Shown piece by piece: positions 4,090 to 61,348 of a DNA stretch of 64,000 nt. The translations under genes were made by a program, and so were the position numbers. The stretch spans positions 3,728 to 67,727 of the forward strand of contig JBDTWL010000011.1 of the NCBI GenBank assembly GCA_040006715.1, written 5' to 3'. The notes under the pieces are model-generated. The model saw nothing but the letters and a program-made list of their open reading frames with translations. It made no database searches and was not told the origin of the DNA. Source of the stretch: Ferruginibacter sp. (GTDB lineage: Bacteria; Bacteroidota; Bacteroidia; Chitinophagales; Chitinophagaceae). Each line of letters opens with the position of its first letter. Within the stretch, counting starts at the first letter, position 1.

Positions 4090-5418
4090 ATGCAAAAAAC
4101 AACAGGGCCTGCGCTCAAACGGGAGATCGGAGCTTCGGCACTCGCTTTAAATGCCATTAACCTTACCATTGGAGCAGGCATTTTTGTTTTACCGGCGATC
4201 GTTGCGGAGAATCTTGGCCCGGCAAGTTTTGTTGCATATATCTCCTGCGGCGTTCTTGTTATTTTGATCATGCTATGTTTTGCTGAGGTAGGGAGCAAAA
4301 TCACCACTTCAGGAGGAGCCTATGCATATGTTGAAAAAGCATTTGGCCCATTGGCGGGCTTTCTGATCAATACTCTTTTCTGGTTTGGCTTTTGTTGTTT
4401 GGCAGACGCAGCTGTTATCAATGCACTCACAGACATGCTTGCAATTTGGTTTCCTGTTTTTTCCTTAACATATATCCGGGTCATTTTTTTTATTGCATCC
4501 TATGCCCTGTTATCATGGGTCAATATCCGTGGTGCAAAAGAGGGAGCTGTGTTTGCCGGTATAGCAACAATATTAAAATTAACACCGCTGCTGTTAATGA
4601 TCATCATTGGATTCTTTCATATATCCCCGGGGAACCTGGCAATAAAAACCTGGCCCGGGATATCAAGTATCGGTGATACTTCTCTTATTCTTTTTTTTGC
4701 TTTCATGGGAACTGAATCAGCTTTAAGTAACAGCGGGGAAATAAAAGATCCACAAAAAAACATACCTAAAGGGATCTTCTGGGGAGTTATGGGAGTATTG
4801 ATCATGTACCTCCTGTTACAATTTGTTTCCCAGGGAGTGATGGGCGACCAGTTGCCAAAATTTAAAGACGCTCCCTTGGCTGCAATGGCATTGAAGTTGA
4901 TCGGCCCGGTTGGAGGTACTATCATTTTAATTACCAGTGTGGTCTCTATGTTCGGAATGCTGAGCGGGGACGTTTTAGCAACTCCAAGGATCTTGTTTGC
5001 TGCCTCCAGGGATCAGTTGCTTCCCGGTTTTCTTGGGAAAGTACATTCAAAATATTCAACTCCTTACTGGTCAATTATTGTTTATAGTTTAATTGTAGTG
5101 CTACTTGCATCCAGTGGAGGATTCAAACAGCTGGCGGTCTTAGCCAGTTCATCCGTATTATTTATTTACCTGGCTGTTGTATTAGCAACGATCAGGTTAA
5201 GGTATAAAAAAGAAGTTGCAGAAAAGGAAGGTTTTAAAATACCGGGAGGATTAACAGTGCCGATACTTGCCATTTGCACGATCGGCTGGTTCTTATCTCA
5301 TATTACAAAAGACGAGATCAAAGGGTTTGCAATATTTTTTGTTCTGCTAACCCTTGTTTATTTTATCCGCAGGGAACTCAGGAAAAAATACATTCAAAAT
5401 ATGAACAATTTAAAATAA
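4090..5418 (+). CDS. APC-family amino acid permease
   Basis: TIGAGIF, GGAY and FAFMGTE motifs; about 12 hydrophobic segments. Confidence 0.9.
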   Translation: MQKTTGPALKREIGASALALNAINLTIGAGIFVLPAIVAENLGPASFVAYISCGVLVILIMLCFAEVGSKITTSGGAYAYVEKAFGPLAGFLINTLFWFGFCCLADAAVINALTDMLAIWFPVFSLTYIRVIFFIASYALLSWVNIRGAKEGAVFAGIATILKLTPLLLMIIIGFFHISPGNLAIKTWPGISSIGDTSLILFFAFMGTESALSNSGEIKDPQKNIPKGIFWGVMGVLIMYLLLQFVSQGVMGDQLPKFKDAPLAAMALKLIGPVGGTIILITSVVSMFGMLSGDVLATPRILFAASRDQLLPGFLGKVHSKYSTPYWSIIVYSLIVVLLASSGGFKQLAVLASSSVLFIYLAVVLATIRLRYKKEVAEKEGFKIPGGLTVPILAICTIGWFLSHITKDEIKGFAIFFVLLTLVYFIRRELRKKYIQNMNNLK

Positions 5419-6248: not shown

Positions 6249-9200
6249 CTATTTCCCTGTTATCCAATAATCCCTGGGATAGATACGGTATAGTTTTGTA
6301 TCGCTGCCCTCAACAGATTGCAGGTATGCTTCGTAGGCAGTCATTTGTTTTTCATTACCAATAACGTAAAAGATGCCTCCTTCCACATCTTTGGATTTAA
6401 TCCCATAGCCCGGGAGTATCTTCTCATAAACAATATCTTTTCTCTTATATAATTCTTCAACAAGGTTTGGCATCTTCCTTAACTCCAGTATTCCGGAACG
6501 AAAATGCCTGATCACGTCCGGTGTGTATCCATCTGTAATATCTGCAGCCATGGCTTCTACCCTTCCTTCATAATCATTTGCCGCACGGGTACGGAATGCA
6601 CCGGCGATCACATACTCACCAAGGCTTGGATCGACCGGGGATCTTTTTATTTCATCAATTACAAAACGAAGTGTTTGAGGCAGTTCCGGTGTGCGTTCTG
6701 CATAATAATTGAACAGCCCGGCTCCTAAACTCGTACCAACACCTGTGCTATAAGATAATCCGGCTCCCGTGGTCTTGGTATAAACACTTTGCTTGCCGCC
6801 GCCTCCATAAAGGCCAGCCGCTAAAAACCGAAGCAGGCTTTCCCTGTTCGTTTCATTATAGGAAACAAGTTTTGCAGAATTCATAAAAACCCCTGTTTGG
6901 GAATTTGGGTTCATCAAACCCACAAAGACGGGCTTTTGAGTTGTTGCCAGCCTTGCCTTCACCCGTTCATCAACAAGATCTTTATTTCCATAAGAAACTT
7001 TTACAAGCACTGAATTATCAAGACCACTTACAAGTGACAGGATATCATTATTGAGTTTTTGCTGTGTTGAACCGGAGGAGACCATGAACATCCTGGCCGC
7101 CCCTTTTTTCATTATACTTTTACGCAGGGCCTCCAGTTCAGCCAATGTTCTTTCGGGACCTTTGGAAAGATCTTTGCTCATTTGATCACATAAATAAGCC
7201 CAGTCCTGCTGCAAAGAATTATCAGGGATATCATTTAATACCTGCTCCAGGTCTTTGGAAGCATCCCCCGCTATTTGTTTAGCGGTGACAGGCAATTCAT
7301 TAAAAGCTGTTATAACATCCTTTAAATTATCGGGCACCAATGAAGTTTTCGATGTATCGCTTTGCAAAGCGCCAAGCAGGTTTTTGCGTTCATCACGGCT
7401 ACCTGTAACTGTTGACAATTCTTTTAAAAATGCTGTTATACTTTTTGTAGTGGCCTCATCACCTGCATCTTTCAGCATCCATTTTAACCGGAAGATATTG
7501 TGCGACCTGGTCAAAAATGAAGTTGTGGATAGTAATAGCGGGTTCTGCTGGCTCATATAAGCGGTTTTTGGATCGCTTACCCAATCTTCTTCGGCACCCT
7601 GCATTTTTTTTCTGATAGCCGCCAGGTTTTGGTCCACAAGGTCCCGGATACGTGAAAGGTTCTCTTTACTCCAATTTGGATGCTGCAGAATAAGTGTCAT
7701 CCATTTTATGGCCCTTTGAGCTTCATCAACATTATTGCCCGAGCCCTTCACAAGCAATTCTGCACGGCCGGTACTAAAATTTGTGCTGTAGCTGCATTGC
7801 AGGGCTAATATCTCCTGCCGTAACAATTCAGTCATAGTTTCATAATCGATGGCCTTACCATCTTTGATCACACCGGTTTCCCGTATAAGTTCAGGAAGGA
7901 TGGCAAGGTAAACCAATTGATCTTCCCTCGTACCATCCAGTTTCAACGCGATCCCGGTCGTAGCGCTTGTCATATTATTGAAGGTCGCTTCCAGCATGTT
8001 TATGTTGCCAGGCAATACCGTTTTTTTGAAATCAAGTTCATCATCCAGTGTCAAAGGAGGATTGTCGATGAATTTTATGATATGGGATTGCTCTGCTTTC
8101 TCAAGTATCGCAGTATTGTTATCATACTCAGCCTTGTATTTAAGGATAGCAGCCTGGTCATCAGCAACATTGTATTTTATCTTTAACCTTGCTATTTCTT
8201 CTTTTACCCGGTCCTTGCGGTCTGCTTCATTTTTATCGATCAGGGCTGCGCTGGCCTTGGTTATAACAGCATAAGGCGTAACGGTTGTAAGTTTCCAGGT
8301 TGCCAGGTAATCTTTCCAGAAATTTTTGCCGGTAGCAAGGAGTACTTCGATCTCATCAAACTGGGGTTTGAGGATGATCGATCTACGGAAGCTTTTTATC
8401 TTACTCATTTCATCCAACTGGGAATACCAGGAATCATATGTATTCCTAAAGCCGAATTTTGGAGGTGTATTTACAAATTTTGCAAGGTTGCGTTTTGTAT
8501 CGGTCAGGCTGTTCCTGAACCTGTTGTTGAATTCCTTTAATTCAGGTGAATTGTCTTTAAATGAGGCTATGCGTAACAGCTCGTTCATTATTTTTTGTCG
8601 TACCAGTTCAGCTTTTTCTGTTGTAAGGTTAGCCGACGCAATATCATCCACTCCTATAAATACCGGCTGTCCCATGTTATCATCAACATAGCCGTATATA
8701 CTTTGTGCCCCCAGGTCAATTTCACGCGTCTTACTGTCAATGAATTTTTTGTACAAATTCGTATTTGCATCGCCGGCAAAGACCGACATAAAATTTGCAA
8801 GCAACAATTCTTCTGTAGCATTCAATTGGCGTTCGGCAGGAAATGTAAACAACATATTTCCGGGGCCCTGCTCGTTCTTGCCGGGGTAATCTGCCACAAC
8901 GATCTTACCCGCTTCAGCCGGTTGCGGAGGAGGCAACTTTAATTTTTGGGCCCTGGCATGTTTTGCAGGATCGGGATCAAGCCTGTTTAAGATAATGTTT
9001 GTTTCTGCAAGTATGTCTGCGAGCGCCATTGTCCTGGGTAAGGAAGTAATGGCTCCCATGTTCCACAGGTAATAATTTGCATCATGAAAATGCTGGATCT
9101 CTGCAGGGCCCAACTCACGTATCCCTGCCGGGTCACCACCCGCATTAAAAGAAAGCGGGTGCGCATTCCCGTATACTAACCGGCCCATTTTGTCGTATAG

Positions 9201-9827
9201 TTGTGAATAGGGATTGGTCATACTGGTAGTCATCTCATTGTATACAGAACCCTTTTCTTCTATTTTCAATGTTTTATCGGGGTTTTCAGATACACCCCAG
9301 TTACGCACTTCACGGTTCACTTCTTCTGCCGTATAATCAGGGTAGAGCAGCGCATCCAGGTACTTTTCAAATAAGTTGTAAAACACTTTCACACCTGCGC
9401 CTGTATAAAAATTATACGCAGTGTGTAATTGTGAAGTAAATGCATTTGAAACCGCAAGCGACATACCTTCCCTGGTATTTAATTCATGTCCCTTGTTCCC
9501 TTTGGTTATCAGCAGGTGTTCCTGGGTATGAGGCTCCCCCTTACCAGAGACCGGGAAAGTATTCACCCAAATAAATGTCTGCGGAACTGATTCTATTTGC
9601 AAAAGATCAAGTGTAAACCCTGTACGCTCATGAATGAAACGCCCTCCCATTGGCTGGCCGGCATCATTTAAATAAACAGCAATAGCACTGAAGCCATTTA
9701 ATTTTTGCCCTTCAGTAAGATCTGAAAGGGAAATCGTTTTAAGCTGGGCATGGAGGGTATTGAATGCCATAAAAAAGAAGGAAATGTAGAGGCCAACCCA
9801 AATGAGCATTTTCTTTTTAAAATTCAT
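6249..9827 (-). CDS. Exported M16 (insulinase/presequence-protease-like) zinc metallopeptidase
   Basis: Inverted zinc motif HTQEH, EKGSVYNEM (cf. KGVVYNEM of PreP/Cym1), signal peptide, 1192 aa. Confidence 0.8.
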   Translation of the reverse strand: MNFKKKMLIWVGLYISFFFMAFNTLHAQLKTISLSDLTEGQKLNGFSAIAVYLNDAGQPMGGRFIHERTGFTLDLLQIESVPQTFIWVNTFPVSGKGEPHTQEHLLITKGNKGHELNTREGMSLAVSNAFTSQLHTAYNFYTGAGVKVFYNLFEKYLDALLYPDYTAEEVNREVRNWGVSENPDKTLKIEEKGSVYNEMTTSMTNPYSQLYDKMGRLVYGNAHPLSFNAGGDPAGIRELGPAEIQHFHDANYYLWNMGAITSLPRTMALADILAETNIILNRLDPDPAKHARAQKLKLPPPQPAEAGKIVVADYPGKNEQGPGNMLFTFPAERQLNATEELLLANFMSVFAGDANTNLYKKFIDSKTREIDLGAQSIYGYVDDNMGQPVFIGVDDIASANLTTEKAELVRQKIMNELLRIASFKDNSPELKEFNNRFRNSLTDTKRNLAKFVNTPPKFGFRNTYDSWYSQLDEMSKIKSFRRSIILKPQFDEIEVLLATGKNFWKDYLATWKLTTVTPYAVITKASAALIDKNEADRKDRVKEEIARLKIKYNVADDQAAILKYKAEYDNNTAILEKAEQSHIIKFIDNPPLTLDDELDFKKTVLPGNINMLEATFNNMTSATTGIALKLDGTREDQLVYLAILPELIRETGVIKDGKAIDYETMTELLRQEILALQCSYSTNFSTGRAELLVKGSGNNVDEAQRAIKWMTLILQHPNWSKENLSRIRDLVDQNLAAIRKKMQGAEEDWVSDPKTAYMSQQNPLLLSTTSFLTRSHNIFRLKWMLKDAGDEATTKSITAFLKELSTVTGSRDERKNLLGALQSDTSKTSLVPDNLKDVITAFNELPVTAKQIAGDASKDLEQVLNDIPDNSLQQDWAYLCDQMSKDLSKGPERTLAELEALRKSIMKKGAARMFMVSSGSTQQKLNNDILSLVSGLDNSVLVKVSYGNKDLVDERVKARLATTQKPVFVGLMNPNSQTGVFMNSAKLVSYNETNRESLLRFLAAGLYGGGGKQSVYTKTTGAGLSYSTGVGTSLGAGLFNYYAERTPELPQTLRFVIDEIKRSPVDPSLGEYVIAGAFRTRAANDYEGRVEAMAADITDGYTPDVIRHFRSGILELRKMPNLVEELYKRKDIVYEKILPGYGIKSKDVEGGIFYVIGNEKQMTAYEAYLQSVEGSDTKLYRIYPRDYWITGK

Positions 9828-10054
9828 GGTGCAGGGATTTAGTCTGTTAGAAAAGTTTTTAAATGTATGTTATGGGAGGAAGCGGAGGATATTCAGCGGA
9901 TGTGAATTTTTGGAACAGGAAGTTAAACAAAGGAAATGTATTTGAGAATAATTTTAATTGTTTAAAAAATGATCGTTCTATTAAAGCGGCTGGTTTTGTG
10001 GGCCAGGCCGGATAAAACGAGCGCTTATCTTTTCCTATCAATTGGTTAAAAAGT

Positions 10055-10062
10055 TATATTTG
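10055..10062 (+). promoter_or_regulatory. Bacteroidota -7 promoter box
   Basis: TATATTTG matches TAnnTTTG, upstream of the 10117 ORF. Confidence 0.6.
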
Positions 10063-10116
10063 CAACATTATTTCGAATATATTAATTTACTTTACTAAAA
10101 TGAATTATACAATTCT

Positions 10117-10452
10117 TTGTTAAGGTCTGTGTACATAATAAGGTTTCTAGCATGTTTAATGCTGGTCGTTTTTGCAATAAGCATTACGCCAAAAAGGGTT
10201 TTGCATGATGTGTTTGCAAAACATATAGACAACAAGTCTCTAAAAAACAGTGATAGCCCCTACCAGTTCTCAAATTCAGGATATAATTGCGATAATGATA
10301 ACCTCGTAGCAGAATCCAATTTTGTAAGTGACCAACAGGTATTCTCTGTTCCCGTATTCATTTCATTTCCTGCCAATATCCAAAAAGATATTTCTTTCTC
10401 CACCAAACCTGGGATCTATTCAGCACTGCGTGGCCCTCCGGTAAATATTTAG
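10117..10452 (+). CDS. Candidate leader/arrest peptide with signal anchor, His/Cys and C-terminal RGPP
   Basis: TTG start, hydrophobic N-terminus, HDVFAKH and NCD, ends LRGPPVNI; directly upstream of the metal-uptake genes. Confidence 0.7.
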   Translation: MLRSVYIIRFLACLMLVVFAISITPKRVLHDVFAKHIDNKSLKNSDSPYQFSNSGYNCDNDNLVAESNFVSDQQVFSVPVFISFPANIQKDISFSTKPGIYSALRGPPVNI

Positions 10453-10509
10453 TTTGATAAGATGTTGTGACATCTGTGCAACTTATTTTTTCAAAAAATA
10501 AATATTCCC

Positions 10510-11664
10510 GTGAACATTATATCCAAAAAGATAATTGTTGTGGCCCTGTTACTGGCGGCCCTTTCTTTCAGCAATAAGACCTTTGCGCAAATTGACAGCA
10601 CAGGCACTGCAGATTCTCTCCTGCTTAAACAGGTAGAAATGCAAATGCAAACAAGCACCCAGCCTGCACCACAGCAAAGCCGCTCAGGCATTTCAGCTAA
10701 CCCGGATATTGGTGCTGTTGCTGATTTCCGTGGATCCTATACCAGCCAGGGCAAGAAGAATTTTGATGCTTACCTGAACGAGACAGAGGTCTCATTTCAA
10801 TCTGTAGTTGATCCTTACATAAGGGCAGACATTTTTGTTTCATTCAGCAGGGATGCTGAGACGCATAAATATGGAGTAGAAATTGAAGAAGGTTATCTTA
10901 CCACACTTTCCCTTCCCGCAAAATTGCAATTGAAAGTAGGGAAATTCAGGGAAGCAGCAGGAAAAATAAACCCCGTGCATCCTCATGCGCTCCCCTTCAT
11001 TGACCTGCCCAATGCCTACGTTAATTATTTTGGTGAAGAAGGCCTCAATGATGAAGGTGCTTCGCTGAGCTGGCTTTTACCAAATAAAAAATTTTACCAG
11101 GAATTCATTTTACAGGCTACCGCAGGGGCCGGTGAATCCCCAAGTTTTAAAAGAGCAACTGATAACCGTTTTGTTTACCTGGGTCATCTTAAAAACTTCT
11201 TTACGCTGAGTGATAATGCAACATTGGAATTGGGCCTGACAGGGATCACGGGCCCCAATGATTCTTCACACAATACAAATATTGCTGCGGCTGATATCAC
11301 TTATAAGTGGAAGCCCCTTCAAATGAATACTTACCGGTCATTGACCTGGCAGTCTGAATTTTTTTACAGCAATGCAAAGTACACGATACCTGGGGCAACA
11401 AACAGCTTCGGGTTTTATTCATTTTTAGAATACCAGCTTGCCAAGCGCTGGTTTTTAACCGGCAGGTATGATTATGCTCAAAAGCCATATGATAAAAATA
11501 TCGTCGAACAGGCTTATTCACTGAGTGCAGGCTGGCTGGCATCTGAGTTTCAGAAAATAGAATTTGAAGGTAAATTAACCAATCAAAGTATTCAATCTGC
11601 ATACAACCAATTCTGGCTGCGCTGGATCTTCGTGATCGGCGCACATGGCGCTCACCAGTATTAG
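10510..11664 (+). CDS. Outer-membrane beta-barrel associated with metal uptake
   Basis: Signal peptide, NPDIG, amphipathic strands, C-terminal WIFVIGAHGAHQY; upstream of the metal-binding protein gene. Confidence 0.75.
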   Translation: MNIISKKIIVVALLLAALSFSNKTFAQIDSTGTADSLLLKQVEMQMQTSTQPAPQQSRSGISANPDIGAVADFRGSYTSQGKKNFDAYLNETEVSFQSVVDPYIRADIFVSFSRDAETHKYGVEIEEGYLTTLSLPAKLQLKVGKFREAAGKINPVHPHALPFIDLPNAYVNYFGEEGLNDEGASLSWLLPNKKFYQEFILQATAGAGESPSFKRATDNRFVYLGHLKNFFTLSDNATLELGLTGITGPNDSSHNTNIAAADITYKWKPLQMNTYRSLTWQSEFFYSNAKYTIPGATNSFGFYSFLEYQLAKRWFLTGRYDYAQKPYDKNIVEQAYSLSAGWLASEFQKIEFEGKLTNQSIQSAYNQFWLRWIFVIGAHGAHQY

Positions 11665-34347: not shown

Positions 34348-34363
34348 TGTCAATTTGCTGACA
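34348..34363 (+). promoter_or_regulatory. Crp/Fnr-type box upstream of the sigma-54 activator gene
   Basis: Perfect TGTCA-ATTTGC-TGACA; TTATTTTG ends at 34392, 29 nt downstream. Confidence 0.8.
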
Positions 34364-34450: not shown

Positions 34451-37400
34451 ATGGGGAAAGTGATATCGAAAAATAAGGAATCCGACAAAGATCTGCACCT
34501 CTCCCATTTCTCATTGGAAAATCTCCATGAAGCAGTATTCTGGATCGATTCCAGGTCACATATCTTCCAGGTAAATGATATGGCCTGCCAGATGACGGGC
34601 TATTCCAAAGAAGATCTTTTAAAAAAAATGGTTGCAGACCTTAACCCAACCAATACAATAGCAGATTTTGAAACATTCTGGAAAAAACTAAAAAAGGAAA
34701 AGAAACTTACCTTCGATTCACAGCATCGCCATAAAGAAGGACACTTGTATGATGTTGAGGTAACCGGCAATTTTATAGAATACAATGGCGAAGAATTTTC
34801 ATGCAGTATTGTAAGGGATATCCGTAAAAAAAAGATGGAAGAAGAATTGTTACGCATCGTTTCTGAAGCAACCTCGGGCGTAACAGGAAAAGATTTTCTT
34901 GTCGAATTAACAAAGAACATCTGCAAAGTGATCGGTATGAAATATTGTTTCGTTGCCGAATGTGCAGATAGTGCGAAAACACGCTTTCGCACTATTGTAT
35001 TTACTGATGGAGAAAAAGTAATGGACAATTTCGAATATGATGCAAAAGATTCGGCCTGTCAAATGATGCTGAAAGCTGTTCCCTATTTTTTGGCAGAAGG
35101 CGCACAGAAATTGTTTAAAGGAGCTACCGGGATCGAATCATATATCGGTGCTCCTATCTTAAGCCATATAAATGGTGAAGTATTGGGACATATAGCCGCA
35201 AGCGATCCCAAACCAATCAGCAATGAAAAAAACCTCACCGCCATACTTCAGATATTCGCAGCAAGGATCGGTGCAGAATTAGCAAGGATGCAGGCAGAAG
35301 ATGCCCTTGAATCAAAGAATAAAGAATTAAACGACCGGTTAAGTGAAATAGAATTATATAACAGTACTGTAAAAAACTTGCAGGACCAGGTTTTCTGGCT
35401 CGATGATAAAGGAAAGTTTATCAGGGTAAATGATGCTGTAAGCAAAATTTCCGGTTACTGTGTAGATGAATTGATGCAGATGACCGTATTTGAACTTAAC
35501 CCTTCCCTTACAAAAAAAGAATGGGAAAAAGGATGGAGGGAAACGAAGAAGCACGGCCAGCAAATAATAGAGACAGAACATCGTACAAAGCAAGGACAAT
35601 CATATCCTGTAGAAGTTACCAACAATTTCATGACCCATAATGCTGTTGAATATTTCTGTTCGTCTGTAAGAGATATCCGCAAGCGTAAAATGGAAGAAGA
35701 ATTGTTACGTACCATTTCCGAAGCAACATCAGCACTGGTTGGCCAGGATTTCTTTGAAGCGCTCACAGAGTATGTTACCGTTTCTCTTGGTGTAAAAACA
35801 TGTATAATCACAGAATGCACAGATGCAGATAAGACAAGGGTACGAACACTTGCCTTCACCAAAGACAGCAAGTTGCAGGAGAACATTGAATATGATATAG
35901 AAGGAACGCCCTGTAAACTTGTGATGGAAGGAAAGGGATCCGACATTTTCATTTCATCAGGTGTTGACAAAACCTATCCCAAAGAAGCCGGTTATGATTC
36001 TTATGTTGCCGTACCCATCTATAGTTCGTCAAACAATGATGTGATCGGCCATATCGCTGCACTTGATGATCATCCGATGACCAACGAGATGAATCAAACA
36101 TCTATCCTCAAAATTTTTGCTGCCCGTGCAGGAGCAGAGATCGACAGGATAAAAGCAGAAGAAAAATTAAAGATCGCCAATGCCGATCTAAAGGTTTTAC
36201 TTAAAGAAAGTGAAGAACGTTTCCGCGACCTGTTTGAAGAAGCTCCGATCGCTTATGTTCATGAAGGGCTCGATTCTAAATTTATCAAAGCCAACCGTGC
36301 AGCTTTGAGTATCCTTGGTGTGAGGCCCGATGAAGTTCCAACAACTTATGGAAAGACAATGGCACCTGATACACCCGATGCACAGCGCCGCATGAAAGAA
36401 GCTTTTGAATCAGTGGGACGAGGTACTGACACAAGTGGCGTGGTGCTTGAGCTAAGACGTAAAGATAATGGCCAACCGATCTGGATACAGTGGTGGTCGA
36501 ACCCTGATGTTGGGGGGCAATTCACCAGGACCATGTTCATTGATATAACGGATAAAGTGTTGATGGAACAGGAACAGGCAAGGTTGCAGGCGCAGAACCA
36601 ATACCTGCAGGAAGAAATTAAATACAATAACAATTTTGAAGAGATCGTAAGCAAGAGCAAGAATTTTCATAAGGTCCTGCAACAGATCGAACAGGTTGCT
36701 TCAACAAATGCAACAGTGTTGATCATGGGTGAAAGCGGTACCGGTAAAGAATTGATCGCACGGGCTGTTCACAATATCAGCAACCGGAGTAAAAGGCCAT
36801 TGGTAAAAGTGAACTGTGCTACCCTTCCCGCCAATTTAATTGAAAGCGAATTGTTCGGGCATGAGAAAGGGGCATTCACCGGTGCGATGGAAAGAAAGAT
36901 CGGACGTTTTGAATTAGCAGATGGCGGTACCATCTTTTTAGATGAGATCGGTGAACTTCCTGTAGAATTACAGGCAAAATTATTACGTGTATTGCAGGAA
37001 GGCGAATTTGAAAGATTGGGCAATCCAAGAACTATGAAAGTAAATGTAAGGGTGATCGCCGCCACTAACCGCAACCTTGAACAGGCCATTGAGAAAAAAG
37101 AATTCAGGGAAGACCTTTATTACCGTTTGAATGTATTCCCGATAACCTGCCCGCCTTTGCGTGAAAGAAAAGAAGACATTCCATTGCTTGTAAAACATTT
37201 TTTACAAAAACATGAACCGAGGGTTGGTAAAAAGATCAGCAATGTATCGCCCAAAGTAATGGATATACTGAATACTTATGATTGGCCGGGTAATATCCGT
37301 GAACTGGAGAACCTGATAGAAAGGGCAATGATCTTATGTCCTGCGAATACGCTGCAGGAAGGTACATGGCTGCCTGTTACTAAATTTACTACTTTAAACG

Positions 37401-41777: not shown

Positions 41778-41793
41778 TGTCGGGCAAATGACA
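41778..41793 (-). promoter_or_regulatory. Crp/Fnr-type box of the YHS-DoxX-...-ATP-grasp operon
   Basis: Minus strand TGTCA-TTTGCC-CGACA; canonical TATATTTG ends at 41749, 29 nt away. Confidence 0.8.
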
Positions 41794-41858
41794 TAAACGA
41801 AGAAAAGTTTAAAACGGATGCAAGCGTTCATAATCAAGGTCAAACTCCCAATTTTTAC

Positions 41859-41893
41859 TCCCAACATTTTGTGAGATTCCCAATAGGTTGGGA
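41859..41893. promoter_or_regulatory. Tandem dyads, candidate enhancer (UAS) for the sigma-54 activator
   Basis: TCCCAA-CATT-TTGTGA (41859-41874) and perfect TCCCAA-TAGG-TTGGGA (41878-41893). Confidence 0.55.
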
Positions 41894-41994
41894 GAAAATT
41901 CGAAGTCGATTTTTCAAATGCCAATTTCTAAATATTTTTTTTACCGTTTACTGGTAAGGCTTTCAGGGCAGTATAAGGTAGTGAAAAAAAATTC

Positions 41995-42009
41995 TGGCAC
42001 AGCGGTTGG
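41995..42009 (+). promoter_or_regulatory. Candidate sigma-54 -24/-12 promoter
   Basis: TGGCAC-AGCGG-TTGG versus consensus TGGCAC-N5-TTGC; only the -12 C differs. Confidence 0.6.
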
Positions 42010-42040
42010 CTATATACGGGCAAATATTTAATCCCGGAAA

Positions 42041-42364
42041 ATGAATAAGATGATCACAAAAGCAAATTTTAAGAAAGAAGTAGCAGAAAGCAATACCCTG
42101 TCATTGGTTCAATTTAAAACAGACTGGAATGGAGCTTCACAGATCGTATCTATGATATACGATGACCTGGCAAGATCATATAAAGGCATCGCAAATTTTC
42201 ATACAGTAGATTATGAAAATGAGCTGGCCCTGGTGAACGAGTATGGTGTAATGGAAGTCCCTACGATCCTTTTTTTCAAAGGGGGGATGATGATCGATCA
42301 TGTTGTGGGGCTGGTTCCAAAAAATGCGCTGATATCGAAGATCGAAAATCATTTATCTAAATAA
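42041..42364 (+). CDS. Thioredoxin-fold protein lacking all cysteines
   Basis: LVQFKTDWNGAS replaces WCGPC; cis-Pro motif EVPTILFFKGG retained; no Cys in 107 aa. Confidence 0.88.
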   Translation: MNKMITKANFKKEVAESNTLSLVQFKTDWNGASQIVSMIYDDLARSYKGIANFHTVDYENELALVNEYGVMEVPTILFFKGGMMIDHVVGLVPKNALISKIENHLSK

Positions 42365-42397: not shown

Positions 42398-43078
42398 ATG
42401 TACAACGAACTAAAATATGTTTACCTGAAAAGCCATCCACTTTTCGCAAACATGTCTGAAAAACAAGTTAATGATGCTTGTGAGCTGATGAAAGTAAAAA
42501 CCGTGTACCGTGGGGAGACATTTGATTATGGTGACGGGGATTATAGCAAAATATATCTTTTAATAAAAGGTAAGATCAAGATCACGCTTTGTGATGATAT
42601 GGACAATGAGTTGATCAAAGATATCCTTACAGCCCCGGATATTTTCGGTGACCTGAGCCTTGATGGCCGTCCATCAAGCGATGAATTTGCACAGGCATTG
42701 ATGGCAAATACAGTTGTATGTTTTTTCAATGCAACCGATTTCAAGAATATCCTCCAGGATAATGTTATGCTTGCCATGAATTATGCAAATACAGTGAATA
42801 ACAAACTCAAGAAACTGGAAAGCAGGCATTCAGACCTGGTATTCCATGATGCAAAGGCAAGGCTGATCCGTTTTATCAAGAACTGGGCAAAAACAGATGG
42901 CAACCGTATCGGCGATAAAATAATCCTGAACAATTATTTAACCCATAGTGATATAGCAGGTGTTATAGCTACTTCACGGCAGAGTGTGAATGTATTGTTC
43001 AATGAACTCCGTGATGCCGGTATGCTGATGTATGACAGGAAGAGGATACAGCTGAATGATATGATCGCTTGGAATTGA
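42398..43078 (+). CDS. Crp/Fnr family transcriptional regulator
   Basis: cNMP-binding-like barrel (IYLLIKGKIKI, DIFGDLSL) and HTH LTHSDIAGVIATSRQSV. Confidence 0.95.
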   Translation: MYNELKYVYLKSHPLFANMSEKQVNDACELMKVKTVYRGETFDYGDGDYSKIYLLIKGKIKITLCDDMDNELIKDILTAPDIFGDLSLDGRPSSDEFAQALMANTVVCFFNATDFKNILQDNVMLAMNYANTVNNKLKKLESRHSDLVFHDAKARLIRFIKNWAKTDGNRIGDKIILNNYLTHSDIAGVIATSRQSVNVLFNELRDAGMLMYDRKRIQLNDMIAWN

Positions 43079-43168: not shown

Positions 43169-43184
43169 TGTCCACCGCACGACA
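43169..43184 (+). promoter_or_regulatory. Crp/Fnr-type box upstream of the SDR-GH63-debranching genes
   Basis: TGTCC-ACCGCA-CGACA; TACTTTTA ends at 43213, 29 nt downstream. Confidence 0.7.
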
Positions 43185-50311: not shown

Positions 50312-50327
50312 AGTCAGCCAGGTGACA
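50312..50327 (-). promoter_or_regulatory. Crp/Fnr-type box upstream of YHS paralog 2
   Basis: Minus strand TGTCA-CCTGGC-TGACT; canonical TAATTTTG ends at 50283, 29 nt away. Confidence 0.8.
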
Positions 50328-51224: not shown

Positions 51225-51240
51225 CGTCACTTACCTGACA
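51225..51240 (+). promoter_or_regulatory. Crp/Fnr-type box upstream of the GMC oxidoreductase
   Basis: CGTCA-CTTACC-TGACA; TCTCTTTG ends at 51269, 29 nt downstream. Confidence 0.78.
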
Positions 51241-53335: not shown

Positions 53336-53351
53336 TGTCAGGCCATTGACA
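53336..53351 (+). promoter_or_regulatory. Crp/Fnr-type box upstream of the aquaporin gene
   Basis: Perfect TGTCA-GGCCAT-TGACA; TCTCTTTG ends at 53380, 29 nt downstream; ATG at 53385. Confidence 0.82.
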
Positions 53352-55490: not shown

Positions 55491-55506
55491 TGTCAGCTGA
55501 CAGACC
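55491..55506 (-). promoter_or_regulatory. Degenerate Crp/Fnr-type box facing the 72-aa ORF
   Basis: Minus strand GGTCT-GTCAGC-TGACA; TATGTTTA ends at 55462, 29 nt away. Confidence 0.5.
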
Positions 55507-55561: not shown

Positions 55562-55577
55562 AGTCATCTACATGACA
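55562..55577 (+). promoter_or_regulatory. Crp/Fnr-type box upstream of the S8 peptidase operon
   Basis: AGTCA-TCTACA-TGACA; TTGTTTTG ends at 55606, 29 nt downstream; ATG at 55611. Confidence 0.78.
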
Positions 55578-61332: not shown

Positions 61333-61348
61333 TGTCGGCAACCTTACA
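61333..61348 (-). promoter_or_regulatory. Crp/Fnr-type box upstream of coaB
   Basis: Minus strand TGTAA-GGTTGC-CGACA; canonical TAGATTTG ends at 61304, 29 nt away. Confidence 0.72.

What the first reader, a model, noticed from the sequence alone, without database searches (positions are those of the whole stretch)
42398..43078. Crp recognition helix has Gln in place of the canonical Glu, matching a TGTCA rather than TGTGA half-site
The HTH reads TSRQSV against E. coli CRP CSRETV. In CRP, Arg180 reads the G of TG and Glu181 reads the G:C pair in TGTGA. The local box keeps TGT but has C at the position Glu181 would read. This protein-DNA co-variation is what would be expected if this protein is the binder.
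Basis: partly seen in the sequence, partly recalled or inferred. Interest (0 to 1): 0.62.

Follow-up and report, generated by a model that had tools for sequence, protein, structure and literature searches.

The report
Crp regulator with CooA-type DNA code
A Crp/Fnr-type gene switch in a Ferruginibacter-like soil or water bacterium has glutamine where E. coli CRP has glutamate, and this fits the TGTCA-type DNA boxes in front of at least eleven neighbouring promoters; the residue-to-base rule is already known from the carbon-monoxide sensor CooA, so this is a well-supported but ordinary new example.

Summary
ORF 42398-43078 is a Crp/Fnr regulator.

The box is real. TGT(C/A)A-N6-YGACA dyads end exactly 29 nt before the G of a TAnnTTTG -7 element. 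That puts the box centre at about -41.5, the class II activator position. There are 9 such promoters in the window and 2 just beyond it. Almost all are confined to one 32-kb island around this gene.

Of the genome's five Crp/Fnr proteins, only this one has Gln. Among 121 genomes of the genus, the 8 with an ortholog are exactly the 8 with two or more strict box matches. A 30%-identical SRQTVT paralog family carries the same box on a shared YHS/DoxX operon. In 66 half-sites, position 7 is C 51, A 14, T 1, G 0.

The rule is not new. CooA has Arg-Gln and binds TGTCG/TGTCA, and an engineered CRP E181Q/R185T activates a TGTCG operator. This scan noted the same code on other DNA.

Verdict: new member of a known kind. 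No binding has been shown. One genome keeps a box with no such Crp in its assembly.

The parts
42398..43078 (+). Crp/Fnr-family regulator gene, 226 aa, with a cNMP-binding-like sensor domain and an HTH_Crp_2 domain
   Evidence: ORF; Pfam PF00027 and PF13545. The nearest solved relatives are NtcA, GlxR-like proteins and CooA-1.
42938..43021 (+). Helix-turn-helix LTHSDIAGVIATSRQSVNVLFNELRDAG; the recognition helix starts at Arg194
   Evidence: Gapless alignment to the CRP HTH. The best PDB match for this part is C. hydrogenoformans CooA-1, helix TTRQTVSV. TSRQSVN[VT] is conserved in all 120 listed relatives (one each with S or M at the last position).
42980..42982 (+). Codon CAG = Gln195, equivalent to CRP Glu181
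42992..42994 (+). Codon for Val199, equivalent to CRP Arg185 (Thr in congeneric orthologs)
42041..42364 (+). Thioredoxin-fold gene without cysteines, 33 nt upstream of crp and probably co-transcribed with it
   Evidence: Pfam Thioredoxin. Gene order trx-like then crp is conserved in G001 and G023.
41995..42010 (+). Sigma-54-type promoter TGGCAC-N5-TTGGC in front of trx-like/crp
   Evidence: TGGCAY-N5-TTGGCTATA is conserved before the operon at 8 orthologous loci. TCCCAA repeats lie upstream at 6 of them.
34348..34363 (+). Box TGTCAATTTGCTGACA before the PAS/GAF sigma-54 activator gene (34451)
41778..41793 (-). Box TGTCATTTGCCCGACA before the YHS-DoxX-OMP-DinB-TANGO2-like operon
   Evidence: The same box lies on the same operon in 15 of 17 genomes that have an SRQ-type Crp.
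43169..43184 (+). Box TGTCCACCGCACGACA directly downstream of crp, before the SDR-GH63-glycogen debranching genes
   Evidence: An equivalent box lies next to crp in G001, G023, G088, G095 and G115.
50312..50327 (-). Box TGTCACCTGGCTGACT before the second YHS gene and the TMEM175-like channel
51225..51240 (+). Box CGTCACTTACCTGACA before the GMC oxidoreductase gene
53336..53351 (+). Box TGTCAGGCCATTGACA before the MIP channel and glyoxalase/VOC genes
55491..55506 (-). Box GGTCTGTCAGCTGACA before a small ORF (55442-55224)
   Evidence: This is the weakest distal half-site.
55562..55577 (+). Box AGTCATCTACATGACA before the subtilase-CBM48 gene
61333..61348 (-). Box TGTAAGGTTGCCGACA before the CoaB-like (DFP) gene

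Best explanation
The gene encodes a dimeric Crp/Fnr-family activator whose recognition helix carries the CooA-type code: Arg at CRP position 180, Gln at 181, and no Arg at 185. It most likely binds the 16-bp dyads TGT(C/A)A-N6-YGACA. These are centred about 41.5 bp upstream of the predicted start sites of at least eleven sigma-A-type promoters (-7 box TAnnTTTG, no -33 TTTG) in the surrounding 32-kb island. There it would act as a class II activator standing in for the missing -33 element.

Arg194 would read the invariant G of TGT, as Arg180 does in CRP. Replacing Glu181 with Gln195 and Arg185 with Val199 removes the two contacts that demand G:C at half-site position 7. That allows C:G, or less often A:T.

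The regulator is itself made from a conserved sigma-54 promoter. This promoter is presumably driven by the co-conserved PAS/GAF enhancer-binding protein, whose own gene carries a box, giving a two-tier cascade with feedback.

Shown here: the protein family, the residue equivalences, the box anatomy and spacing, the clustering, and the co-occurrence. Inferred: actual binding, activation, the atomic contacts, the effector, and the start sites.
For: - Family and alignment.
- All nine boxes end 29 nt before the G of the -7 element. TAnnTTTG occupies -12 to -5 in flavobacterial start-site maps (PMC9723704), so the box spans -49 to -34.
- Genome-wide, sites with this spacing lie almost only on contig C11 between 38 and 70 kb. 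TGTCA is the top dyad of 1023, p = 8e-7. TGTGA, FNR-type and TGTAA dyads show no peak.
- Only 5 Crp/Fnr proteins are in the genome. The other four have Glu and Arg185.
- The only other DNA-binding regulator in the island is the sigma-54 activator.
- Orthologs (52-60% identity, helix SRQSVTT) occur in 8 of 121 congeneric genomes. Those same 8 are the only genomes with 2 or more strict box matches. Boxes cluster around the ortholog in G001, G023, G051, G088, G095 and G115.
- SRQTVT paralogs carry the same box on the YHS/DoxX operon in genomes that lack the activator ortholog. 15 of 17 genomes with an SRQ-type Crp have the box on that operon, against 1-2 of 15 without.
- Half-site position 7 is C 51, A 14, T 1, G 0.
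- Known code: CooA sites are TGTCGGCnnGCCGACA (PMC545781). Positions 180/181 are specificity determinants, and NssR (Ala180/Gln181) binds TTAAC (PMC1274295). CRP Gln181/Thr185 activates a TGTCG operator (PMC2677863).
Against: - There are no binding, expression or start-site data for this protein or any close relative.
- G082 keeps a perfect box before its YHS operon, yet no SRQ-type Crp was found in its 340-contig assembly.
- The closest ortholog (G117, 60% identity) and a second copy in G115 have no boxes within 20 kb.
- Box and regulator share one accessory island, so their co-occurrence is partly co-inheritance. The genomes are also related, so the counts are not independent.
- Desai et al. 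found that Ala181/Arg185 activates the same TGTCG operator as Gln181/Thr185. Gln is therefore not uniquely required.
- SRQTVT homologs outside the genus showed no such boxes within 10 kb under my strict criterion.
- The AlphaFold2 model was poor (pLDDT 52.7), so there is no structural support.
Confidence: 0.72

Rival explanations
1. The protein does bind the boxes, but Gln195 is not the specificity determinant. On this view, C or A at position 7 is tolerated simply because the Glu181 and Arg185 contacts are lost, or because of other helix residues (Ser196, Asn198) or DNA shape. The Gln-to-C match would then be correlation without a direct contact.
For: In Desai et al., CRP Ala181/Arg185 activated the same TGTCG operator as Gln181/Thr185 'despite different chemistries'. 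Position 7 is A in 21% of half-sites. The distal half-site is loose at position 4.
Against: Arg-Gln recurs with TGTC operators in unrelated lineages, including CooA of Desulfovibrio; the Arg-Gln helix is also seen in Carboxydothermus CooA-1. Gln is conserved in all 120 listed relatives and in the 30%-identical paralogs that use the same box. G never occurs at position 7 in 66 half-sites.
Confidence: 0.17
2. A different regulator binds the boxes. Candidates are the island's PAS/GAF sigma-54 enhancer-binding protein (TGT-N10-ACA resembles NifA-type upstream sites, from memory) or a factor encoded elsewhere. In that case the Crp has another, unidentified target.
For: The activator ortholog co-occurs with the Crp ortholog in all five ortholog-bearing genomes checked (G001, G023, G051, G088, G117). 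G082 has a box and no SRQ-type Crp. The regulator G117 ortholog has no nearby boxes.
Against: The boxes sit at a fixed 29 nt from sigma-A -7 elements, with no -24/-12 promoter downstream. Enhancer-binding proteins do not activate sigma-A promoters (established knowledge). The conserved upstream elements of the one sigma-54 promoter in the island are TCCCAA repeats, not TGTCA. Genomes with only the SRQTVT paralog have the box but only 44-52% identical generic activators. The 5-N6-5 dyad at -41.5 is the Crp/Fnr signature.
Confidence: 0.09
3. The boxes are chance matches or a repeated promoter module with no regulator, and the helix difference is neutral drift.
For: The raw count of the dyad with up to 2 mismatches is not enriched in the window.
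Against: The spacing is invariant, the island enrichment has p = 8e-7, both half-sites are conserved across orthologous promoters in six genomes, and co-occurrence with the regulator is perfect.
Confidence: 0.02

Closest known systems
CooA, the CO-sensing Crp/Fnr activator (Rhodospirillum rubrum, Desulfovibrio, Carboxydothermus hydrogenoformans)
   Same: CooA has Arg-Gln at CRP positions 180/181 and no Arg at 185. C. hydrogenoformans CooA-1, helix TTRQTVSV, is the best solved match to this HTH, and Desulfovibrio CooA was the model for the Gln181/Thr185 CRP mutant. Its operator is TGTC(G/A)-N6-(C/T)GACA (TGTCGGCnnGCCGACA). It activates from just upstream of the core promoter (from memory).
   Different: This protein has no histidine between residues 14 and 143, where CooA's haem ligand lies (sequence). 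No CO dehydrogenase or hydrogenase genes are nearby. It works with Bacteroidota sigma-A -7 promoters, and its signal is unknown. Overall similarity to CooA is no greater than to NtcA.
E. coli CRP and the engineered CRP7 (Glu181Gln/Arg185Thr) of Desai et al. 2009 (PMC2677863)
   Same: The fold and HTH register are the same, and Arg180 is kept. The engineered double mutant activates an operator with C at position 7, the same two-residue and one-base change seen here.
   Different: The cAMP-contacting Arg82/Ser83 are not conserved. The natural operator is TGT(C/A)A, never TGTGA. It controls a local island regulon rather than acting as a global regulator.
Specificity code of Crp/Fnr positions 180/181 (Rodionov et al. 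2005, PMC1274295), including P. gingivalis HcpR (Gln181) and C. jejuni NssR (Ala180/Gln181, TTAAC-N4-GTTAA)
   Same: The same two helix positions co-vary with the same operator bases. NssR shows Gln181 paired with A at the equivalent position, which fits the TGTAA half-sites here.
   Different: Those regulators control nitrosative-stress genes (hcp, cgb). This one controls YHS/DoxX, glycogen-related, channel and oxidoreductase genes.
MrpC of Myxococcus xanthus (Crp family; GTGTC-N8-GACAC sites, recalled from memory and not checked here)
   Same: It has the same TGTC-N8-GACA core.
   Different: It belongs to a different lineage and a developmental regulon. Its helix sequence was not examined.

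Membership tests
Crp/Fnr superfamily | N-terminal cNMP-binding-like beta-roll domain | tested here: met
   PF00027 at residues 47-122, 32.3 bits against a cut-off of 27.5
Crp/Fnr superfamily | C-terminal Crp-type helix-turn-helix | tested here: met
   PF13545 at residues 154-222, 38.4 bits against a cut-off of 27. The HTH aligns to CRP without a gap.
Crp/Fnr superfamily | Dimer binding a 5-N6-5 (or 5-N4-5) inverted repeat | tested here: inconclusive
   A 16-bp dyad with both halves conserved is associated with the gene. No binding or oligomer data exist, and the AlphaFold2 model was poor.
Class II Crp/Fnr-dependent promoter | Site centred near -41.5, overlapping or replacing the upstream promoter element | tested here: inconclusive
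   The box ends 29 nt before the G of TAnnTTTG at all sites. With TAnnTTTG at -12 to -5 (PMC9723704), the centre is -41.5. No TTTG follows the box.
CooA (CO sensor) family | Arg-Gln recognition helix with a TGTC-type operator | tested here: met
CooA (CO sensor) family | Haem-ligating histidine in the sensor domain | tested here: not met
   There is no His between residues 14 and 143 of the protein (sequence).
CooA (CO sensor) family | Linked to coo genes (CO dehydrogenase and hydrogenase) | tested here: not met
   Pfam survey of the island genes found no such genes.
CRP (cAMP receptor protein) proper | cAMP-binding Arg82/Ser83 and Arg-Glu...Arg helix with a TGTGA operator | tested here: not met
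   Arg82/Ser83 align to Pro-Ser-Ser, and the helix is R-Q...V. There is no TGTGA at the promoters.

The most novel reading that the evidence does not exclude
The SRQ[ST]V proteins could form a widespread, uncharacterised Chitinophagaceae branch of the Crp/Fnr family. On this reading they work with a co-transcribed redox-type partner: a thioredoxin fold that has lost its cysteines here, or MsrB in the paralog. They would form the lower tier of a sigma-54-to-Crp cascade that switches on a redox/thiol-repair and glycogen-mobilising island. The partner protein, rather than a small molecule, could be the signal input. Gln195 reading either C or A might be used to grade promoter strength.
Probability: 0.2. 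Interest if true: 0.5.

Novelty: new member of a known kind. Interest (0 to 1): 0.3.

Why it matters
The result assigns a likely operator and an 11-promoter local regulon to an unstudied regulator family. That family is common in Chitinophagaceae metagenomes: 801 relatives at E<=1e-10, all named only 'Crp/Fnr family'. It also extends the 180/181 recognition code of the Crp/Fnr family to Bacteroidota promoters of the -7 TAnnTTTG type. It gives a clean natural test case (Gln/Val or Gln/Thr against C/A at position 7) for predicting operators from helix sequence. It does not reveal a new principle. The same residue-to-base pairing was predicted in 2005 and engineered into CRP in 2009.

Tried and rejected
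- Plain dyad counting with up to 2 mismatches shows no enrichment. I replaced it with tests of spacing and clustering.
- I looked for boxes within 1.5 kb of the 30%-identical homologs and found none. Wider context was needed.
- SRQ-type homologs from other families of the order showed no boxes within 10 kb under the strict criterion. This is inconclusive, because promoter architecture or motif detail may differ.
- I searched for a class-II-spaced TGTGA or FNR-type regulon for the Glu-type paralogs, as an in-genome contrast. No peak was found.
- The AlphaFold2 model built from 33 close relatives was poor (pLDDT 52.7). I did not run a fold search or use the second job.
- The sigma-54 activator was considered as the binder and rejected on promoter type, on its distinct TCCCAA upstream repeats, and on its absence from paralog-only genomes.
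- CooA orthology was rejected: no haem ligand and no coo genes.

Full report
**The gene and the helix.** ORF 42398..43078 (+) encodes a 226-aa protein. It has a cNMP-binding-like domain (residues 47-122) and a Crp-type HTH (154-222), both above Pfam's cut-offs. BLASTP against E. coli CRP aligns the HTH without a gap: LTHSDIAGVIATSRQSVNVLFNEL against [24 protein letters not shown].
- Arg194 corresponds to CRP Arg180.
- Gln195 (CAG, 42980-42982) corresponds to Glu181.
- Val199 corresponds to Arg185.

It omits the second change, the loss of Arg185, which in CRP also contacts base pair 7. The cAMP contacts Arg82/Ser83 are not conserved, so cAMP is an unlikely ligand. Names attached to 90%-identical proteins place the organism in Ferruginibacter (Chitinophagaceae). 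There are 801 relatives at E<=1e-10, all annotated only as 'Crp/Fnr family'. All of the best 120 carry the helix TSRQSVN followed by V or T (one each has S or M).

**The box.** The finding does not say where the 'local box' is. I confirmed all nine. In every case the promoter-proximal edge lies exactly 29 nt before the G of a TAnnTTTG-like -7 element, five on the plus strand and four on the minus strand.

In flavobacterial start-site maps the sigma-A motif TAnnTTTG occupies -12 to -5 (PMC9723704). The box therefore spans about -49 to -34 and is centred at -41.5, the classical class II Crp/Fnr position. It takes the place of the Bacteroidota -33 TTTG element (PMC7366714). None of these promoters shows that element after the box.

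**Is it more than chance?**
- A raw count of the dyad with up to 2 mismatches is not enriched: 33 found, 32.9 expected.
- In the whole 3.95-Mb assembly, sites with up to 1 mismatch show a peak of TTTG at offset 29: 8, against a background of about 2.
- Sites with that architecture lie almost only on contig C11 between 38 and 70 kb. Two of them lie just past the window end.
- In an unbiased scan of all 1023 5-N6-5 dyads, TGTCA is the most island-enriched: 8 of 90 sites in 0.8% of the genome, p = 8e-7.
- TGTGA, FNR-type and TGTAA dyads give no spacing peak.

**Who binds it?** The genome encodes five Crp/Fnr proteins. Their helices are TESLIR, ARENVVR, RVETVIR, TREAVSR and SRQSVNV. Only the gene in question lacks Glu and the Arg185 equivalent. 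It also lies in the middle of the box cluster. The only other DNA-binding regulator found in the island is a PAS/GAF sigma-54 enhancer-binding protein at 34451.

*Co-occurrence across the genus.* Orthologs (52-60% identity, helix SRQSVTT, same trx-like/crp gene pair) occur in 8 of 121 genomes: G000, G001, G023, G051, G088, G095, G115 and G117. A strict pattern, TGTMA-N6-YGACA-N25-TTTG, has two or more matches in exactly those 8 genomes and none or one in the other 113. The genomes are related and the island is inherited as a unit, so this is not an independent-sample statistic. Boxes with identical architecture cluster around the ortholog in G001, G023, G051, G088, G095 and one locus of G115.

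*The paralog family.* A second family about 30% identical, with helix SRQTVTT, lies next to msrB. It is linked to the YHS-DoxX-DinB-TANGO2-like operon, which carries the same box. In G000 the equivalent operon has box 41778. Genomes with only this paralog have the box but only generic (44-52% identical) sigma-54 activators, whereas the activator ortholog is 72-81% identical where the Crp ortholog exists. Of 17 inspected genomes with an SRQ-type Crp, 15 have the box on that operon. Of 15 without one, 13 have none.

*The sigma-54 activator is an unlikely binder.* The one sigma-54 promoter in the island, TGGCAY-N5-TTGGCTATA, lies before trx-like/crp and is conserved at eight loci. It has TCCCAA repeats upstream, not TGTCA boxes.

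**The residue-to-base match.** I anchored on only one half-site plus the -7 box and tabulated the other half in six orthologous islands (238 kb). Position 7 of the half-site is C 51, A 14, T 1 and G 0 out of 66. G5 and T6 are nearly invariant. The promoter-proximal half (YGACA) is tighter than the distal half (nGT[C/A]A). The base that CRP's Glu181 and Arg185 read as G is thus never G here.

This is the known CooA-type code:
- The HTH's best solved match is C. hydrogenoformans CooA-1, helix TTRQTVSV.
- Desulfovibrio CooA sites are TGTCGGCnnGCCGACA (PMC545781).
- Rodionov et al. 2005 described positions 180/181 as specificity determinants that co-vary with operator bases. Their examples include Gln181 in P. 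gingivalis HcpR and Ala180/Gln181 in NssR, which binds TTAAC (PMC1274295).
- Desai et al. 2009 showed that E. coli CRP carrying Gln181/Thr185 activates an operator with C and G at positions 7 and 8 (PMC2677863).

The A seen in 21% of half-sites agrees with the NssR precedent. How Gln contacts the base pair is inference.

**Caveats.**
- Nothing has been measured. There are no binding, start-site or expression data.
- G082 keeps a perfect box before its YHS operon, but no SRQ-type Crp is in its 340-contig assembly and it has no further boxes. This is either recent loss or an assembly gap. In G071 the paralog is deleted and the box is degenerate.
- The closest ortholog (G117) and a second G115 copy have no boxes within 20 kb.
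- Ala181/Arg185 CRP also activated the TGTCG operator. Loss of Glu may matter as much as the presence of Gln.

**What it is and is not.** It is a Crp/Fnr family member. It works like CooA at the DNA end but is not a CooA: it has no sensor-domain histidine and no coo genes. It is not a cAMP-CRP either. The most likely circuit is:
1. The PAS/GAF activator drives the sigma-54 promoter.
2. That promoter produces the thioredoxin-fold protein and the Crp.
3. The Crp gives class II activation of at least 11 promoters.

The targets are the YHS/DoxX/DinB operon, the SDR-GH63-glycogen debranching genes, a second YHS gene with a TMEM175-like channel, a GMC oxidoreductase, the MIP channel and VOC genes, the subtilase-CBM48 gene, the CoaB-like gene, and the activator's own gene. 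The gene content suggests a redox or thiol-stress and storage-glucan response. The signal is unknown.

**Verdict.** The principle is already established, and this scan has noted it several times on other DNA. I rate it a new member of a known kind, interest 0.3.

Noticed in passing
window 41846-42010; orthologous loci L013-L029: The trx-like/crp operon is preceded by a sigma-54-type promoter, TGGCAY-N5-TTGGCTATA, conserved at eight orthologous loci. At six of them, TCCCAA/TTGGGA repeats lie 100-150 nt upstream. These repeats are the likely binding sites of the co-conserved PAS/GAF enhancer-binding protein.
   Followed up: partly
window 42041-42364; L002 2198-2650; L003 2184-2558: The thioredoxin-fold protein upstream of crp has no cysteine in this genome (WNGAS). 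The orthologs in G001 and G023 read WSGPC, with one cysteine left. The active site appears to be decaying within the genus while the gene pair is kept.
   Followed up: no
G000 contig C11 69218 and 69889 (window-equivalent 65491 and 66162, beyond the window end): Two further boxes with the same 29-nt spacing lie before the genes at 64450-65442 and 65584-66120. The regulon therefore extends past the window.
   Followed up: partly
L055 (G082:C36) 5251-5266: A perfect box, TGTCATTTGCATGACA, lies before the YHS operon of a congeneric genome. No SRQ-type Crp and no other boxes were found in that genome, so this is an orphan operator or an assembly gap.
   Followed up: partly
L064 (G071:C56) about 6757-10572: The msrB-crp(SRQTVT)-response regulator segment present in relatives is missing here. 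The box before DoxX is degenerate (TGTTGTGTAGCTGACA), as expected for operator decay after loss of the regulator.
   Followed up: no
L034 6724-7895 and equivalents in G012, G023, G045, G051, G077, G119: The SRQTVT paralog is always immediately downstream of an msrB (SelR) gene, and near a LuxR-type response regulator and the YHS/DoxX/DinB/TANGO2-like/ATP-grasp-like cluster. This points to an oxidative-damage repair theme.
   Followed up: partly
G000 contig C46 21488-22579: A 363-aa protein fuses a receiver (response-regulator) domain to a cNMP-binding domain and a Crp HTH (helix TESLIR). The same architecture occurs in G082.
   Followed up: no
window 55491-55506: This box contains a nested shorter palindrome, TGTCAGCTGACA (TGTCA-N2-TGACA). 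It lies back-to-back, 55 nt away, with box 55562 on the other strand, forming a divergent promoter pair.
   Followed up: no
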